Source: Escherichia coli
GTDB taxonomy: Bacteria; Pseudomonadota; Gammaproteobacteria; Enterobacterales; Enterobacteriaceae
Reading direction: 5' to 3' (one strand)
DNA: 64,000 nt
Assembly (NCBI RefSeq): GCF_002854065.1
Contig: NZ_CP024147.1
Shown: positions 53,433-61,246 of the stretch, in pieces
Layout: each line of letters starts with the position of its first letter
Numbering within the stretch: position 1 is the first letter of the stretch
Position numbers and translations under genes: made by a program
The notes under the pieces: model-generated
What the model saw: the letters and a program-made list of their open reading frames with translations, nothing else
Told to the model about the DNA's origin: nothing
Database searches by the model: none

Positions 53433-53437
53433 ATATC
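53433..53437. repeat. Right copy of the 5-bp IS2 target-site duplication (aatat)
   Basis: Identical to 52096-52100. Confidence 0.75.
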
Positions 53438-53704
53438 TTATAGAATCTGACTATGAAACTATTCGTATTAGCTCCGATAAGTTTGATGATGAAAACAGAA
53501 CTGGCGACAACAAGTAGCAGCCTTTCTGATGAATTGACCCCAACTTAATATTGTCAACTATCTTCACAGAATCTCCACAATCTCTTCATTATCAGAATAT
53601 GCACCATGAATAAGATAAAAATACTTTCCATTACTTTGGAGAAACGTATAATCAGCAAAAATGAGAACGATCATTCTCACTAAGTGATAGGCCAGGAGAC
53701 AGAA

Positions 53705-54271
53705 ATGACCAGCAAGCTGGAGATACGCCACAAACAGCGTCAGGATGAAATCATTAACGCCGCCCGTCGGTGTTTTCGTCGCTGCGGGTTTCATGCCGCC
53801 AGTATGTCGCAAATTGCCAGTGAAGCTCAGCTTAGCGTGGGTCAGATATATCGTTACTTCGCCAACAAAGACGCCATTATTGAAGAGATGGTTCGCCGTA
53901 TCATCGACTTTCGTATTGCCCAAATGGACATTGAGGCGCGTACCGATCACTTCCCGGAAGTCCTTGCCTTGCGTAAATCCTTAAATGAGGACGACGACGC
54001 GCTGATGCTGGAAGTGGCTGCAGAAGCCACACGCAACCCGCGGGTTATGGCAATGCTTGAAGAAGCTGACGCCAGAATGTTCGCTAACGGTTGTGCACAT
54101 ATGAAAAGAATGCATCCCCATCTTAGCGACGAGCACATTCGTTGCTGCGTTGAAGTGTTTGCTACCATGATGGAAGGTACGGTTTATCGTCGTTTAACAC
54201 CGCAAAAAAGCGATCCGCAACATCTGCAGGAAATATATCAGGATATTGTTAGTATGTTGATAAATAAATAA
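53705..54271 (+). CDS. TetR/AcrR-family transcriptional regulator (188 aa)
   Basis: N-terminal HTH (SMSQIASEAQLSVGQIYRYFANKDAI); start placed at ATG 53705 with AGGAGA 5 nt upstream rather than the GTG 53684 used by the ORF track. Confidence 0.85.
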   Translation: MTSKLEIRHKQRQDEIINAARRCFRRCGFHAASMSQIASEAQLSVGQIYRYFANKDAIIEEMVRRIIDFRIAQMDIEARTDHFPEVLALRKSLNEDDDALMLEVAAEATRNPRVMAMLEEADARMFANGCAHMKRMHPHLSDEHIRCCVEVFATMMEGTVYRRLTPQKSDPQHLQEIYQDIVSMLINK

Positions 54272-54291
54272 GAACAGAATTAACCAATAGC

Positions 54292-54320
54292 GGGGGATAT
54301 TAATCCCCCTTATTTCATTG
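54292..54320 (+). terminator. Intrinsic terminator after the TetR gene
   Basis: Hairpin ggggga-tattaa-tccccc followed by ttatttcatt. Confidence 0.6.
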
Positions 54321-54372
54321 CGAAATTCATTTCGCGATGCGGGTTCGTTATAACTGAATATCCCTGACATAT

Positions 54373-54392
54373 CCTCATTAATTTTAATGAGG
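54373..54392. promoter_or_regulatory. Perfect inverted repeat CCTCATTAA-TT-TTAATGAGG; candidate operator of the efflux operon
   Basis: 9-bp arms with 2-bp spacer, 28 nt upstream of the adaptor gene start and downstream of the tetR terminator. Confidence 0.4.
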
Positions 54393-54419
54393 AGGGTATT
54401 TCTCACCCTGGAGAAAATA

Positions 54420-58648: not shown

Positions 58649-58651
58649 GTT

Positions 58652-60025
58652 ATGTTGCGTCGTTCTCTTATTTTTCTGGTGCTGTTGAGTGCGGGATGTG
58701 TCTCGCTCGATCCCCACTACAGCACGCCTGAATCCCCAATCCCGGCGACCTTGCCGGGAGCACAGGGCCAGGGAAAGGCAATCAGCCATGACTGGCAGCA
58801 GGTGATCCACGATCCCCGATTGCAGCAGGTGGTGACTATTGCACTGAACAGTAACCGCGATGTGCAAAAAGCGATTGCTGATATTGACTCAGCACGGGCG
58901 CTCTATGGGCAAACTAATGCGTCGTTATTCCCGACGGTGAATGCGGCCTTAAGTTCAACCCGCAGTCGTTCGCTGGCGAATGGTACGGAAACCACTGCCG
59001 AGGCTGACGGCACGGTGTCCAGTTTTACGTTAGATCTGTTTGGTCGTAATCAGAGTTTATCTCGGGCGGCGCGAGAAACCTGGCTTGCCAGTGAATTTAC
59101 AGCCCAGAACACCCGTTTAACGCTGATTGCTGAAATCAGCACCGCCTGGCTGACACTGGCGGCCGATAACAGCAACCTGGCCCTGGCAAAAGAAACGATG
59201 ACCAGTGCAGAAAACTCATTGAAAATTATCCAGCGCCAGCAACAGGTTGGCACGGCGGCAGCGACAGATGTCAGTGAGGCGATGAGTGTTTATCAGCAAG
59301 CGCGCGCCAGCGTTGCCAGCTATCAGACACAAGTGATGCAGGATAAAAATGCGCTGAACTTGCTGGCAGGTACAACGCTTGAGGAAAATTTGCTACCGGG
59401 AACACTGGAAAGCCTGCCGGAACAGATGATAAGTCTGGTTCCTGCGGGAGTGTCATCTGACGTTCTGCTGCGTCGCCCGGATATCCAGGAAGCGGAACAT
59501 AATTTGAAGAGCGCCAATGCCGATATTGGCGCGGCGCGGGCTAACTTTTTCCCGACGATTTCGCTGACTGCCAGCGCTGGTGTTGGCAGTGACGCATTGT
59601 CGTCGTTGTTCAGCCACGGAATGCAGATCTGGTCATTTACGCCATCGGTCACATTACCGCTGTTCACTGGCGGAAGTAATCTGGCGCAGCTTCGTTACGC
59701 AGAAGCACAAAAGCGTGGACTCATTGCCACCTATGAAAAAACCGTTCAGAGCGCATTTAAAGATGTCGCTAACGCACTGGCGCGGCGGACCACGCTTGAA
59801 GAGCAACTGGATGCACAGCGCCAGTATGTTAAAGCTGAGCAACAAACGGTCGATGTTGGCTTGCGTCGCTATCAGACGGGTGTTGGTGATTACCTGACCG
59901 TGTTGACGGCGCAGCGCAGCTTGTGGAGCGCACAGCAGGAGCTGCTGGCACTGCAACTGACTGATTTTACAAACCGAATCACGCTCTGGCAGTCGCTGGG
60001 CGGCGGCATGTCATCACTCAAGTAA
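58652..60025 (+). CDS. Efflux outer-membrane factor lipoprotein, NodT/OprM family (457 aa)
   Basis: Lipobox LLSAGC; starts 3 nt after the RND stop; two OEP repeats typical of TolC-like outer-membrane channels. Confidence 0.9.
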   Translation: MLRRSLIFLVLLSAGCVSLDPHYSTPESPIPATLPGAQGQGKAISHDWQQVIHDPRLQQVVTIALNSNRDVQKAIADIDSARALYGQTNASLFPTVNAALSSTRSRSLANGTETTAEADGTVSSFTLDLFGRNQSLSRAARETWLASEFTAQNTRLTLIAEISTAWLTLAADNSNLALAKETMTSAENSLKIIQRQQQVGTAAATDVSEAMSVYQQARASVASYQTQVMQDKNALNLLAGTTLEENLLPGTLESLPEQMISLVPAGVSSDVLLRRPDIQEAEHNLKSANADIGAARANFFPTISLTASAGVGSDALSSLFSHGMQIWSFTPSVTLPLFTGGSNLAQLRYAEAQKRGLIATYEKTVQSAFKDVANALARRTTLEEQLDAQRQYVKAEQQTVDVGLRRYQTGVGDYLTVLTAQRSLWSAQQELLALQLTDFTNRITLWQSLGGGMSSLK

Positions 60026-60033
60026 GGAATAAT

Positions 60034-61197
60034 ATGGCTAGAGTCTCTCTTTCATGGGCATTGATTCTTGGTCTTTTAGCCGGTATCGGCCCGATGTGTA
60101 CCGATCTTTATTTGCCGGCTTTGCCGGAGATGTCTGAGCAACTGGCGGCAACCACGACCATAACGCAATTAACGCTGACTGCATCACTGATCGGTCTTGG
60201 CGTCGGACAACTGTTATTTGGCCCTCTGAGCGACAAAATAGGGCGTAAACGTCCGTTAATCTTGTCGTTGCTATTGTTTATTGTTTCTTCCATTTTGTGC
60301 GCGACAACGAACAATATTTACTGGCTGGTGGTCTGGCGTTTTATTCAAGGGATCGCGGGGGCGGGTGGTTCGGTGCTCTCTCGTTCTATTGCTCGTGACA
60401 AATATCAGGGAGTAACGTTGACCCAGTTTTTTGCGCTGTTAATGACGGTGAATGGCCTGGCACCGGTGTTGTCGCCAGTGCTGGGCGGGTACATTGTTAG
60501 CACTTTTGACTGGCGCACTTTATTCTGGGTAATGGCTGAAATTAGCACCGTATTGTTGCTGGGCTGCGTGTTATTTATTAATGAGACCTTGCCAGAAAAT
60601 AAAAGGGGCTCATCATTGCTATTAACCGGACGAAGCGTGGTGCAGAACCGCCGTTTTATGCGCTTTTGCCTGATTCAAAGTTTTATGCTGGCAGGTTTGT
60701 TTGCGTATATCGGCTCTTCGTCGTTCGTGTTGCAGAAGGAATTTGGCTTTAGTCCAATGCAATTTAGCCTGGTGTTTGGCCTTAACGGCATCGGACTTAT
60801 CATTGCTTCATGGATCTTTTCGCGTCTGGCGCGACGGATTAATGCGATGACATTGTTGCGAGGTGGCCTGATAGCGGCAATTTTGTGTGCATTGCTCACG
60901 GTCTTATGCGCATGGACACAATTGCCCATTCCGGCACTGGTGGCATTATTTTTCACTATTGCATTTTGTAGCGGCATCGGCACTGTTGGCGGGGCAGAGG
61001 CTATGAGTGCAGTAGGGACGCAGGAATCTGGAACGGCGTCTGCGTTGATGGGGATGAGCATGTTTGTCTTCGGCGGTATAGCCGCGCCATTGTCGGGATT
61101 TGGCGGAGAAACACTGTTAAAAATGAGTCTGGCAATTACGGTGTGTTATACACTGGCATTCCTGGTTGCTCTCACCAGAATCGACAATCAAAAGTAA
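60034..61197 (+). CDS. MFS drug efflux transporter, Bcr/CflA-like (387 aa)
   Basis: 12-TM MFS with motif GPLSDKIGRKRP; starts 8 nt after the outer-membrane factor stop, with AAGGA overlapping that stop. Confidence 0.88.
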   Translation: MARVSLSWALILGLLAGIGPMCTDLYLPALPEMSEQLAATTTITQLTLTASLIGLGVGQLLFGPLSDKIGRKRPLILSLLLFIVSSILCATTNNIYWLVVWRFIQGIAGAGGSVLSRSIARDKYQGVTLTQFFALLMTVNGLAPVLSPVLGGYIVSTFDWRTLFWVMAEISTVLLLGCVLFINETLPENKRGSSLLLTGRSVVQNRRFMRFCLIQSFMLAGLFAYIGSSSFVLQKEFGFSPMQFSLVFGLNGIGLIIASWIFSRLARRINAMTLLRGGLIAAILCALLTVLCAWTQLPIPALVALFFTIAFCSGIGTVGGAEAMSAVGTQESGTASALMGMSMFVFGGIAAPLSGFGGETLLKMSLAITVCYTLAFLVALTRIDNQK

Positions 61198-61202
61198 TGA
61201 AT

Positions 61203-61238
61203 ACCTCATCCTGAGGGGGGCCCCTGTCAGGATGAGGT
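61203..61238. terminator. GC-rich hairpin with 12-bp perfect arms between convergent MFS gene and sapF
   Basis: acctcatcctga-ggggggcccctg-tcaggatgaggt; no canonical U-tract. Confidence 0.45.
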
Positions 61239-61246
61239 GCAGAACA

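What the first reader, a model, noticed from the sequence alone, without database searches (positions are those of the whole stretch)
53433..61246. Accessory efflux gene block (TetR regulator, AcrA-like adaptor, RND pump, outer-membrane factor, MFS pump) at the fabI-sapF locus
From fabI leftward the window follows the K-12 gene order, and sapFDC resumes at 61247. Between them, where K-12 has the small gene ycjD as I remember it, lie five co-directional genes: a TetR-family regulator, an AcrA/MexA-like lipoprotein adaptor, an AcrB/MexB-like RND transporter, a NodT/OprM-like outer-membrane lipoprotein and a Bcr/CflA-like MFS transporter. This is a complete, self-contained tripartite pump that does not need TolC, plus an extra inner-membrane pump, inside an otherwise core housekeeping region. 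All ORFs are intact with good RBSs and the catalytic DD pair of the RND protein is present, so it is probably functional. The IS2 copy sits right at its left edge.
Basis: partly seen in the sequence, partly recalled or inferred. Interest (0 to 1): 0.7.

Follow-up and report, generated by a model that had tools for sequence, protein, structure and literature searches.

The report
Known eefRABCD efflux operon of E. coli

Summary
Five intact, co-directional genes lie between fabI and sapF: a TetR regulator, an AcrA/MexA-like lipoprotein adaptor, an AcrB/MexB-like RND permease, an OprM/NodT-type outer-membrane lipoprotein and a Bcr/CflA-type MFS pump.

This is the named and experimentally studied eefRABCD operon (Pugh et al., Microb Genom 2026, PMC12817139; Shen et al., Virulence 2025, PMC12482432).
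- It is 97.5-98.9% identical per gene to the ATCC 25922 reference.
- It carries the published EefR operator TGAGAACGATCATTCTCA at 53662-53679.
- It is present in 2043 of 5426 complete E. coli genomes and absent from K-12.

The true variable segment is 52015-61233. It replaces an unrelated 651-bp ycjD segment of K-12. It has no junction repeats, no mobility gene apart from IS2, and native GC content.

IS2 (52101-53431, 5-bp duplication AATAT) is a simple, strain-specific insertion inside the fabI-eefR spacer. It lies 193 bp upstream of the eefR promoter and is seen in none of the 5426 genomes.

Three minor additions:
- The 148-nt eefR-eefA spacer forms three stem-loops that are conserved with covariation across genera. 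Neither paper mentions them.
- The operator is conserved exactly in about 27 Enterobacteriaceae species.
- The "plasmid-borne" copies I examined are chromosome fragments.

Novelty: already known. Interest: low.

The parts
52015..61233 (.). Strain-variable segment (eef locus plus IS2) that replaces the unrelated 651-bp ycjD segment of K-12
   Evidence: blastn against K-12: homology ends at window 52014 and resumes at 61234. No similarity between the K-12 651 bp and this segment; best blastn E = 0.18.
51103..51891 (-). fabI (left core flank). A promoter-like site at 52007-51979 lies just inside the K-12-homologous DNA.
52101..53431 (+). IS2 (1331 bp; insC 52192-52557, insD 52515-53420), a simple insertion in the fabI-eefR spacer. 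Its 5-bp target duplication AATAT is at 52096-52100 and 53432-53436.
   Evidence: 99.3-99.7% identical to annotated IS2 copies. Ends and duplication read directly. The reconstructed empty site is an exact substring of strain CUWW06. No genome of 5426 has IS2 here.
53625..53652 (+). Sigma-70 promoter-like site of eefR (TTTCCA-16-TATAAT)
   Evidence: Best-scoring + strand promoter match in the region, 10 of 12. It sits just upstream of the operator, as published for PeefR (PMC12482432).
53662..53679 (+). EefR operator, palindrome TGAGAACGATCATTCTCA
   Evidence: Exact match to the EMSA-validated operator of PMC12482432. It is also exact next to EefR orthologues in about 27 Enterobacteriaceae species.
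53705..54271 (+). eefR, TetR-family repressor (188 aa)
   Evidence: Pfam TetR_N E = 2e-15. One residue differs from ATCC 25922 EefR.
54286..54314 (+). Stem-loop 1 of the eefR-eefA spacer: a G+C-rich hairpin (core 54292-54309) with a U-rich tail, resembling an intrinsic terminator or attenuator
   Evidence: conserved with covariation across genera
54316..54339 (+). Stem-loop 2 of the spacer (10-bp stem)
   Evidence: 7 of 10 pairs show double-sided changes
54372..54393 (+). Stem-loop 3 of the spacer (palindrome CCTCATTAAttTTAATGAGG). It overlaps a one-mismatch operator-like site at 54388-54405.
54420..55541 (+). eefA, periplasmic adaptor lipoprotein (373 aa; lipobox LSGC, Cys17, Asp at +2)
   Evidence: TIGR01730 above cut-off. 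51.2% identical to AcrA. N-terminus read.
55541..58648 (+). eefB, RND (HAE-1) permease (1035 aa)
   Evidence: TIGR00915 and NF000282 above cut-off. 57.3% identical to AcrB; D408, D409, K935, R965 and T972 conserved. Nearest solved structures are AcrB and MexB.
58652..60025 (+). eefC, OprM/NodT-type outer-membrane factor lipoprotein (457 aa; lipobox SAGC, Cys16)
   Evidence: TIGR01845 above cut-off. Best solved relative is OprM, E = 2e-101. N-terminus read.
60034..61197 (+). eefD, Bcr/CflA-type (DHA1) MFS exporter (387 aa)
   Evidence: TIGR00710 above cut-off; 4 residues differ from ATCC 25922
61205..61238 (.). 11-bp inverted repeat CCTCATCCTGA...TCAGGATGAGG between the convergent genes eefD and sapF (terminator-like). 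K-12 homology resumes inside its 3' arm.
61247..62053 (-). sapF (right core flank)

Best explanation
The block is the chromosomal eefRABCD operon of E. coli.

Shown in the cited papers:
- A sigma-70 promoter upstream of eefR drives one transcript through all five genes.
- EefR, a TetR-family dimer, binds the palindrome TGAGAACGATCATTCTCA next to that promoter and represses itself and the pump genes, so the operon is largely silent in the laboratory.

Shown here by sequence:
- In the window the -10 element is at 53647-53652 and the operator at 53662-53679.
- All parts needed for the mechanism below are present.

Inferred from family knowledge: when repression is lifted, three things happen.
- EefB, a proton-driven RND trimer in the inner membrane, captures amphiphilic substrates.
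- EefB passes them through the lipoprotein adaptor EefA into the OprM-type channel EefC, and so across the outer membrane.
- EefD, a 12-helix MFS antiporter, moves substrates from the cytoplasm to the periplasm.

Inferred from my structure analysis: a terminator-like hairpin and two further conserved stem-loops in the eefR-eefA spacer probably set how much transcription reads through from eefR into the pump genes, or stabilise the downstream message.

IS2, 193 bp upstream of the promoter, is a private insertion that most likely leaves this circuit untouched.
For: Identity with the published operon:
- Gene order, lengths and locus match ATCC 25922, with 1-8 residue differences per protein.
- The block lies between fabI and sapF exactly as described in PMC12817139.
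- It is present in 2043 of 5426 complete E. coli genomes at 95-100% identity and absent from K-12.

Regulation:
- The operator is exact at 53662-53679, and a 10-of-12 promoter match lies directly upstream.
- EMSA, reporter and RT-PCR evidence for repression and co-transcription is in PMC12482432.

Pump components:
- Family models score above their cut-offs.
- The proton-relay residues are conserved.
- Lipoboxes are present in EefA and EefC.
- The nearest solved structures are AcrB/MexB and OprM.

Function from the literature:
- Cloned eefABC raised ethidium and rhodamine 6G MICs in a K-12 acrB deletion strain.
- In another study it raised sanguinarine, chloramphenicol, erythromycin, tetracycline, clindamycin and fusidic acid MICs 8- to 32-fold.

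Spacer structure:
- The spacer folds with z = -4.56 against shuffles.
- The hairpins recur in seven genera.
- 92% of cells are paired, against 41-55% in slid controls, and 11 of 14 pairs show double-sided changes.
Against: - The two experimental papers disagree on whether antibiotics are substrates. PMC12817139 found only dyes; PMC12482432 found multidrug resistance. The natural substrate and inducer are unknown.
- Expression in this particular strain was not measured, and IS2 could alter it.
- The nearest sequenced relative, CUWW06, carries a nonsense mutation in eefA (Q21*), which hints at relaxed selection in this IS-rich lineage.
- The role I assign to the spacer hairpins is inference only. 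The terminator's U-tract is interrupted in E. coli, and read-through clearly occurs: eefA rose 83-fold in an eefR deletion strain.
Confidence: 0.93

Rival explanations
1. The block is a horizontally acquired, mobile resistance island, possibly moved by IS2 or carried on plasmids, that landed in a core region.
For: - It is absent from K-12 and from 62% of complete genomes.
- An IS2 copy lies next to it.
- PMC12482432 reports copies on plasmids in five strains.
- An Enterobacter cloacae IncFIB plasmid carries an eefRABC homologue.
Against: - There is only one IS2 copy. It is flanked by its own 5-bp duplication and is absent from all other eef-positive genomes, so it arrived after the block.
- There are no junction repeats of 7 bp or more.
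- GC content and GC3 resemble the neighbouring core genes.
- The locus is the same in all 2043 genomes.
- The E. coli 'plasmid' records I examined carry pdeR-rnb-yciW-fabI ... sapFDCBA around the operon, are typed non-mobilizable, and one is 4.9 Mb. They are chromosome fragments.
- The operon is also at fabI in E. whittamii, and in E. albertii and E. marmotae according to PMC12817139. This favours ancestral presence with loss in phylogroups A, B1 and C.
Confidence: 0.04
2. IS2 insertion upstream of eefR switches on the otherwise cryptic operon in this strain. It could do so by outward or read-through transcription from IS2, or by disrupting upstream silencing of the A+T-rich spacer. This would resemble the IS1/IS2 activation of acrEF in acrB mutants.
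For: - IS2 is oriented so that its transposase genes read towards eefR.
- The spacer downstream of IS2 has only 35% GC.
- IS2-dependent activation of acrEF and ampC is documented (PMC9330008).
- Insertions in this spacer are rare: 2034 of 2043 eef-positive genomes have it uninterrupted.
Against: - No promoter-like site spans the IS2 junction.
- IS2 ends 193 bp upstream of the native -35 element, so it cannot form a fusion promoter with it.
- The operator and an intact eefR lie between IS2 and the pump genes, so EefR repression should persist.
- A single occurrence gives no sign of selection.
Confidence: 0.08
3. The operon is a decaying, functionally irrelevant remnant in this lineage: intact by chance but on its way to becoming a pseudogene cluster.
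For: - The closest genome differs by 2 bases over 7.8 kb, and one of those is a nonsense mutation in eefA.
- Deleting eefABC or eefD in ATCC 25922 gave no MIC phenotype.
Against: - All five ORFs are full length with conserved catalytic residues, lipoboxes and ribosome-binding sites.
- The operon is as conserved as acrAB-tolC across phylogroups (PMC12817139).
- The regulatory sites are exact.
Confidence: 0.07

Closest known systems
eefRABCD of E. coli ATCC 25922, SMS-3-5 and ATCC 35218 (Pugh et al. 2026, PMC12817139; Shen et al. 2025, PMC12482432)
   Same: Same five genes, order, lengths, locus (fabI-sapF), promoter and operator. Per-gene nucleotide identity to ATCC 25922 is 97.5-98.9%, with 1-8 amino-acid differences per protein.
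   Different: An IS2 is inserted in the fabI-eefR spacer, which is not seen in 5426 complete genomes. Otherwise there are only ordinary allelic differences; the allele is closest to those of strain CUWW06 and O157:H7.
EefABC of Klebsiella (Enterobacter) aerogenes and the eefRABC loci of Enterobacter
   Same: - Orthologous TetR-adaptor-RND-OMF order.
- Identity to an E. cloacae locus: EefB 87%, EefA 79%, EefC 77%, EefR 68%.
- The 18-bp operator is identical, and there is a three-hairpin spacer.
- PMC12482432 gives 78%, 87% and 75% identity to the E. aerogenes EefA, EefB and EefC proteins.
   Different: - Enterobacter loci lack eefD and sit in a different genomic context.
- In Enterobacter the -10 element abuts the operator, whereas E. 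coli has 9 extra bases between them.
- The K. aerogenes operon is reported to be silenced by H-NS (cited).
AcrAB-TolC (E. coli) and MexAB-OprM (P. aeruginosa)
   Same: - Same tripartite HAE-1 RND architecture and proton relay.
- EefB is 57% identical to AcrB and EefA 51% identical to AcrA.
- EefC is closest to OprM among solved structures.
   Different: - The outer-membrane factor is encoded in the operon, as in MexAB-OprM and unlike AcrAB.
- An MFS pump is attached to the operon.
- The repressor is co-directional and co-transcribed rather than divergent.
- The substrate range appears narrower or different, and the two published studies conflict.
IS1/IS2 activation of the cryptic acrEF operon
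   Same: An IS2 lies upstream of a normally silent RND operon (for the precedent).
   Different: Here IS2 is far from the promoter, no fusion promoter is detectable, and the repressor gene and operator are intact. Activation has not been shown.

Membership tests
E. coli eefRABCD operon | Five co-directional genes in the order TetR, adaptor, RND, OMF, MFS, lying between fabI and sapF | tested here: met
E. coli eefRABCD operon | High nucleotide identity and full coverage relative to the ATCC 25922 reference genes | tested here: met
   Differences are 6/567, 24/1122, 51/3108, 34/1374 and 18/1164 nucleotides. Lengths are equal and there are no stops.
E. coli eefRABCD operon | EefR operator TGAGAACGATCATTCTCA in the eefR promoter region | tested here: met
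   Exact at 53662-53679. It is the only exact TGAGAAN6TTCTCA match in the window, and chance expectation (allowing one mismatch) is 0.14.
E. coli eefRABCD operon | EefR-dependent repression and co-transcription of all five genes | not testable with these tools
   Shown for ATCC 35218 in PMC12482432. Not measured for this strain.
HAE-1 RND tripartite efflux pump (AcrAB-TolC / MexAB-OprM type) | Full-length RND permease with the transmembrane proton relay (AcrB D407, D408, K940, R971, T978) | tested here: met
   D408, D409, K935, R965 and T972. TIGR00915 scores 1550 against a cut-off of 940.
HAE-1 RND tripartite efflux pump (AcrAB-TolC / MexAB-OprM type) | Membrane-fusion adaptor with a lipoprotein signal | tested here: met
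   TIGR01730 scores 274 against 95. Lipobox LSGC followed by Asp at +2.
HAE-1 RND tripartite efflux pump (AcrAB-TolC / MexAB-OprM type) | Outer-membrane factor of the NodT/OprM family with a lipoprotein signal | tested here: met
   TIGR01845 scores 371 against 210. OprM is the best solved match. Lipobox SAGC.
HAE-1 RND tripartite efflux pump (AcrAB-TolC / MexAB-OprM type) | Substrate efflux that depends on all three components, independent of TolC | not testable with these tools
   The literature is divided. Modelling predicts EefA is incompatible with TolC, yet eefAB without eefC is active.
TetR-family repressor | N-terminal TetR helix-turn-helix domain with a helical C-terminal ligand domain | tested here: met
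   Pfam TetR_N, E = 2e-15, residues 16-62; weak TetR_C_6 and TetR_C_31 matches
Bcr/CflA (DHA1) MFS exporters | Full-length match above the family cut-off | tested here: met
   TIGR00710 scores 279 against 201
Mobile genomic island | Integrase or transposase-bounded structure, flanking repeats or tRNA site, atypical composition, variable location | tested here: not met
   - No junction repeats of 7 bp or more.
- GC 0.505 against 0.497 for the rest of the window.
- One late IS2 insertion only.
- One fixed locus in 2043 genomes.
- A tRNA site was not scanned for; both flanks are protein-coding genes (fabI, sapF).

The most novel reading that the evidence does not exclude
The 148-nt eefR-eefA spacer may be an undescribed cis-regulatory RNA. 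It consists of a terminator-like hairpin followed by two stem-loops, all conserved by compensatory changes from Escherichia to Kosakonia. It could gate read-through from the autoregulated repressor gene into the pump genes, by attenuation or by processing and stabilisation, adding a second control layer to EefR. In this strain, the IS2 upstream could additionally feed transcription into that gate.
Probability: 0.3. Interest if true: 0.4.

Novelty: already known. Interest (0 to 1): 0.15.

Why it matters
The block shows that the K-12 inventory of six RND pumps is incomplete for many pathogenic E. coli lineages, but that point was published in 2024-2026. For this window the practical value is correct annotation (eefRABCD, not an unnamed island) and exact junctions.

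Four small additions may help people working on the system:
- The EefR operator is conserved exactly across many Enterobacteriaceae, so the regulation is not specific to E. coli.
- The eefR-eefA spacer carries three conserved stem-loops that nobody has examined.
- The reported plasmid copies that I could inspect are mis-labelled chromosome fragments. This weakens the claim that this resistance mechanism can spread by plasmid.
- The K-12 ycjD segment holds no detectable remnant of eef.

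Tried and rejected
1. I looked for eef remnants in the K-12 fabI-sapF segment with blastn (word size 7) and tblastx. Only chance-level hits appeared (best E = 0.18 and 0.08). The idea that ycjD is a degraded piece of the operon is not supported.

2. I looked for att-like direct or inverted repeats at the two junctions and found none of 7 bp or more.

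3. I looked for an IS2-native fusion promoter at the IS2 right end. The scan found no promoter-like site there.

4. An Rfam scan of 51800-61400 at gathering thresholds gave no match.

5. I considered the one-mismatch operator-like site at 54388-54405 as a second EefR site.
- The 148-bp fragment downstream of eefR that served as the non-specific competitor in PMC12482432 did not compete; it is probably this spacer, which has the same length.
- Single-base operator mutants lost binding.
- The site is therefore probably not bound.

6. I considered a leader peptide in the spacer (ATG at 54338). The ATG is not conserved in Kluyvera or Dryocola and has no spaced Shine-Dalgarno sequence, so I rejected it. 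This rests on reading the sequences.

7. I tried to read the original E. aerogenes H-NS paper (PMC1112065), but it is not held.

8. MAFFT misaligned hairpin 3, so I assessed it per sequence instead. That is weaker evidence than for hairpins 1 and 2.

Full report
**Observation**

The interval holds five co-directional + strand ORFs. With the start codons used by RefSeq for identical loci they are:
- eefR 53705-54271
- eefA 54420-55541
- eefB 55541-58648
- eefC 58652-60025
- eefD 60034-61197

All are open and of reference length, and each is preceded by a Shine-Dalgarno sequence.

- EefB scores above cut-off for RND permease models TIGR00915 and NF000282.
- EefA scores above cut-off for adaptor model TIGR01730.
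- EefC scores above cut-off for NodT-type outer-membrane factor model TIGR01845.
- EefD scores above cut-off for Bcr/CflA MFS model TIGR00710.
- EefR has a Pfam TetR_N domain.

Further checks on the proteins:
- EefB is 57.3% identical to K-12 AcrB and keeps D408, D409, K935, R965 and T972, the equivalents of the AcrB proton relay.
- EefA and EefC begin with lipoprotein signal peptides, LSGC-D and SAGC respectively.
- The nearest solved structures are AcrB/MexB for EefB and OprM for EefC.

**Junctions and IS2**

Apart from the features listed here, the window is colinear with K-12 from ychE to sapC.
- K-12 homology stops at window 52014, which is 123 bp upstream of the fabI start and just beyond a fabI promoter-like site. 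It resumes at 61234, which is 13 bp beyond the sapF stop.
- Between these points K-12 has 651 bp containing ycjD. That segment shows no detectable similarity to the 7.9-kb eef segment, so this is a clean replacement.
- No repeats of 7 bp or more mark the junctions.
- GC and GC3 values match the neighbouring core genes.

IS2 occupies 52101-53431 and is flanked by the duplication AATAT. Removing it and one copy of the duplication gives a sequence that is an exact substring of strain CUWW06. IS2 is therefore a simple insertion into the normal 477-bp fabI-eefR spacer. It lies 86 bp inside the variable segment and 193 bp upstream of the eefR -35 element.

None of the 5426 complete E. coli genomes has IS2 at this position. 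The spacer is uninterrupted in 2034 of the 2043 eef-positive genomes.

**Identity**

Megablast finds the block in 2043 of 5426 complete E. coli genomes, always once and at 95-100% identity. These include O157:H7, S88 and ATCC 25922.

A literature search shows it is the eefRABCD operon.

Pugh et al. (PMC12817139) report the following:
- The operon lies between fabI and sapF in phylogroups B2, D, E, F and G.
- The components were modelled structurally.
- Only ethidium and rhodamine 6G were found to be substrates.

Shen et al. (PMC12482432) report the following:
- EefR represses its own promoter by binding TGAGAACGATCATTCTCA.
- All five genes are co-transcribed.
- Loss of EefR raises pump transcripts 27- to 83-fold.
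- Cloned eefABC and eefD raise MICs of sanguinarine and several antibiotics in acrB-deficient hosts.

The window carries that operator exactly at 53662-53679, with a TTTCCA-16-TATAAT promoter match directly upstream. Per-gene nucleotide identity to ATCC 25922 is 97.5-98.9%. Membership in the published operon is therefore met on every feature that can be tested here.

**Mechanism**

The best explanation is the published one. An EefR-repressed promoter drives eefR and, by read-through, eefABCD. EefB, EefA and EefC form a proton-driven tripartite exporter with its own OprM-type channel. EefD is an inner-membrane MFS exporter.

Repression and co-transcription were shown in the papers. Here I show that all the sequence parts are present. 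Assembly and transport are inferred from family knowledge.

Three points remain open: the natural substrate, the inducer, and whether TolC can replace EefC. On the last point, modelling argues that it cannot, while the activity of eefAB without eefC suggests that it can.

**Is it an island?**

It is accessory at the species level, but nothing marks it as mobile. The three E. coli records in the plasmid collection that hold the full block are typed non-mobilizable. One of them is 4.9 Mb. The two whose context I inspected (CP141085, CP054253) carry the chromosomal neighbours pdeR-rnb-yciW-fabI and sapFDCBA (the fuller annotation lists all of them, the other most of them), which include the essential gene fabI. 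These records are best read as chromosome fragments. This weakens the plasmid-spread statement in PMC12482432, at least for these records.

**Wider distribution**

An exact-match scan of one genome per species for the 18-bp operator returned 46 loci. About 27 of these are Enterobacteriaceae in which the operator lies beside an EefR orthologue or the eef pump genes. The arrangements vary:
- Enterobacter, Leclercia, Lelliottia and Dryocola loci show eefR, eefA and eefB as far as the fetched DNA reaches; eefC was also seen in Enterobacter genomosp. O, Leclercia and an E. cloacae plasmid, and eefD is absent from the two loci that extend far enough to tell.
- Kluyvera intermedia, Kosakonia and E. 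whittamii have eefRABCD.
- Two Kluyvera species have eefR followed directly by eefD.
- The K. oxytoca complex keeps the promoter, operator, leader and eefABCD but has lost eefR.

Protein identities to an E. cloacae locus are 87% for EefB, 79% for EefA, 77% for EefC and 68% for EefR. The E. coli system is therefore orthologous to the Enterobacter/Klebsiella eef locus, and EefR control is not an E. coli-specific adaptation.

**A detail not in the papers**

The 148-nt eefR-eefA spacer folds into three stem-loops, with z = -4.56 against shuffles and 0 of 200 shuffles folding as well:
- 54286-54314, which is terminator-like and has a U-rich tail
- 54316-54339
- 54372-54393

The same three hairpins occur at the same positions in seven genera, with different stem sequences.

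For hairpins 1 and 2, measured on an unbiased MAFFT alignment:
- 92% of cells are paired, against 41-55% when the pairing partner is slid.
- 11 of 14 pairs show changes on both sides.
- No shuffle out of 500 reaches the observed covariation.

Rfam has no matching family, and neither paper mentions these hairpins.

I read this spacer as an attenuator or processing-and-stability element between the repressor gene and the pump genes. That reading is inference, the sample is small (13 sequences in about six lineages), and hairpin 3 was assessed only per sequence.

**Effect of IS2**

IS2 can activate silent efflux operons; acrEF is a documented example (PMC9330008). Here, however, no junction promoter is detectable, the native promoter is 193 bp away, and the operator and an intact eefR lie downstream of IS2. 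The insertion is most likely neutral. I give activation about 8%.

**Verdict**

However, the system is already known, named and experimentally characterised. Interest is low (0.15). The residual novelty lies in the conserved structured spacer and in the strain-specific IS2.

Noticed in passing
window 54272-54419: The eefR-eefA spacer forms three stem-loops: 54286-54314 (terminator-like), 54316-54339 and 54372-54393. They are conserved with compensatory changes in Escherichia, Enterobacter, Leclercia, Lelliottia, Dryocola, Kluyvera and Kosakonia. There is no Rfam family for them, and the two eef papers do not mention them.
   Followed up: partly
window 54388-54405: An operator-like site, TGAGGAGGGTATTTCTCA, has one mismatch to TGAGAAN6TTCTCA and lies just upstream of the eefA ribosome-binding site. 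Published EMSA used a 148-bp fragment downstream of eefR (probably this spacer, which has the same length) as the non-competing control, so the site is probably not bound.
   Followed up: partly
window 35106-35873: An IS1 (768 bp, 8-bp duplication GAATTATT) is inserted between cysB and ymiA relative to K-12. Strain CUWW06 shares it.
   Followed up: partly
window 771-774: The K-12 IS5U copy between ychE and oppA is absent here. The window has the empty site.
   Followed up: no
L001 (NZ_CP182139.1, strain CUWW06) 7048; window 54480: The closest genome differs by only 2 bases across the 7.8-kb block. One of them turns EefA Gln21 (CAA) into a stop, and RefSeq flags that eefA as a pseudogene. The window's copy is intact.
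   Followed up: yes
L006 (NZ_CP141085.1), L007 (CP054253.1), H56 (NZ_CP134663.1): The E. coli 'plasmid' records that carry eefRABCD are typed non-mobilizable, and H56 is 4.9 Mb. The two I inspected (L006, L007) hold the chromosomal context pdeR-rnb-yciW-fabI ... sapFDCBA. They look like chromosome fragments, which undercuts the published suggestion of plasmid spread.
   Followed up: yes
L037 (Klebsiella oxytoca) about 9219-9600; also L034 and L045: The K. oxytoca complex keeps the eefR promoter, the exact operator, a leader and eefABCD. eefR itself is reduced to a few codons, which predicts expression free of EefR control.
   Followed up: partly
L023 (Kluyvera genomosp. 3), L046 (Kluyvera georgiana): eefR with the exact operator is followed directly by an eefD orthologue (66-68% identity) after a 141-nt spacer, with no eefABC. 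The regulator-MFS pair can therefore exist without the RND pump.
   Followed up: no
L024 (Acidovorax sp. MR-S7) 1271-1288; Paenibacillus loci L022, L038, L052: The identical 18-bp palindrome lies between a divergent TetR gene (30% identical to EefR) and an EefA-like adaptor gene (55%) in a betaproteobacterium. It also lies immediately upstream of short-chain dehydrogenase genes in several Paenibacillus genomes. Whether this is chance or a shared operator type is unresolved.
   Followed up: no
window 61205-61238: An 11-bp inverted repeat, CCTCATCCTGA...TCAGGATGAGG, with a G6C4 core lies between the convergent genes eefD and sapF and is probably a bidirectional terminator. The right junction with K-12 homology (61234) falls inside its 3' arm.
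   Followed up: no
L002 (K-12) 6164-6814 versus window 52015-61233: The K-12 ycjD segment shows no detectable nucleotide or translated similarity to the eef segment. PMC12817139 Fig. 3 describes conserved 'operon fragments' in eef-negative strains. That may be an artefact of forced global alignment.
   Followed up: partly
L008 (E. cloacae plasmid pAVS0889-b, IncFIB) 4125-10476: An eefRABC homologue with the exact operator sits on a 91-kb IncFIB replicon in Enterobacter cloacae, without eefD. In that locus the -10 element abuts the operator, whereas E. coli has 9 extra bases between them.
   Followed up: partly
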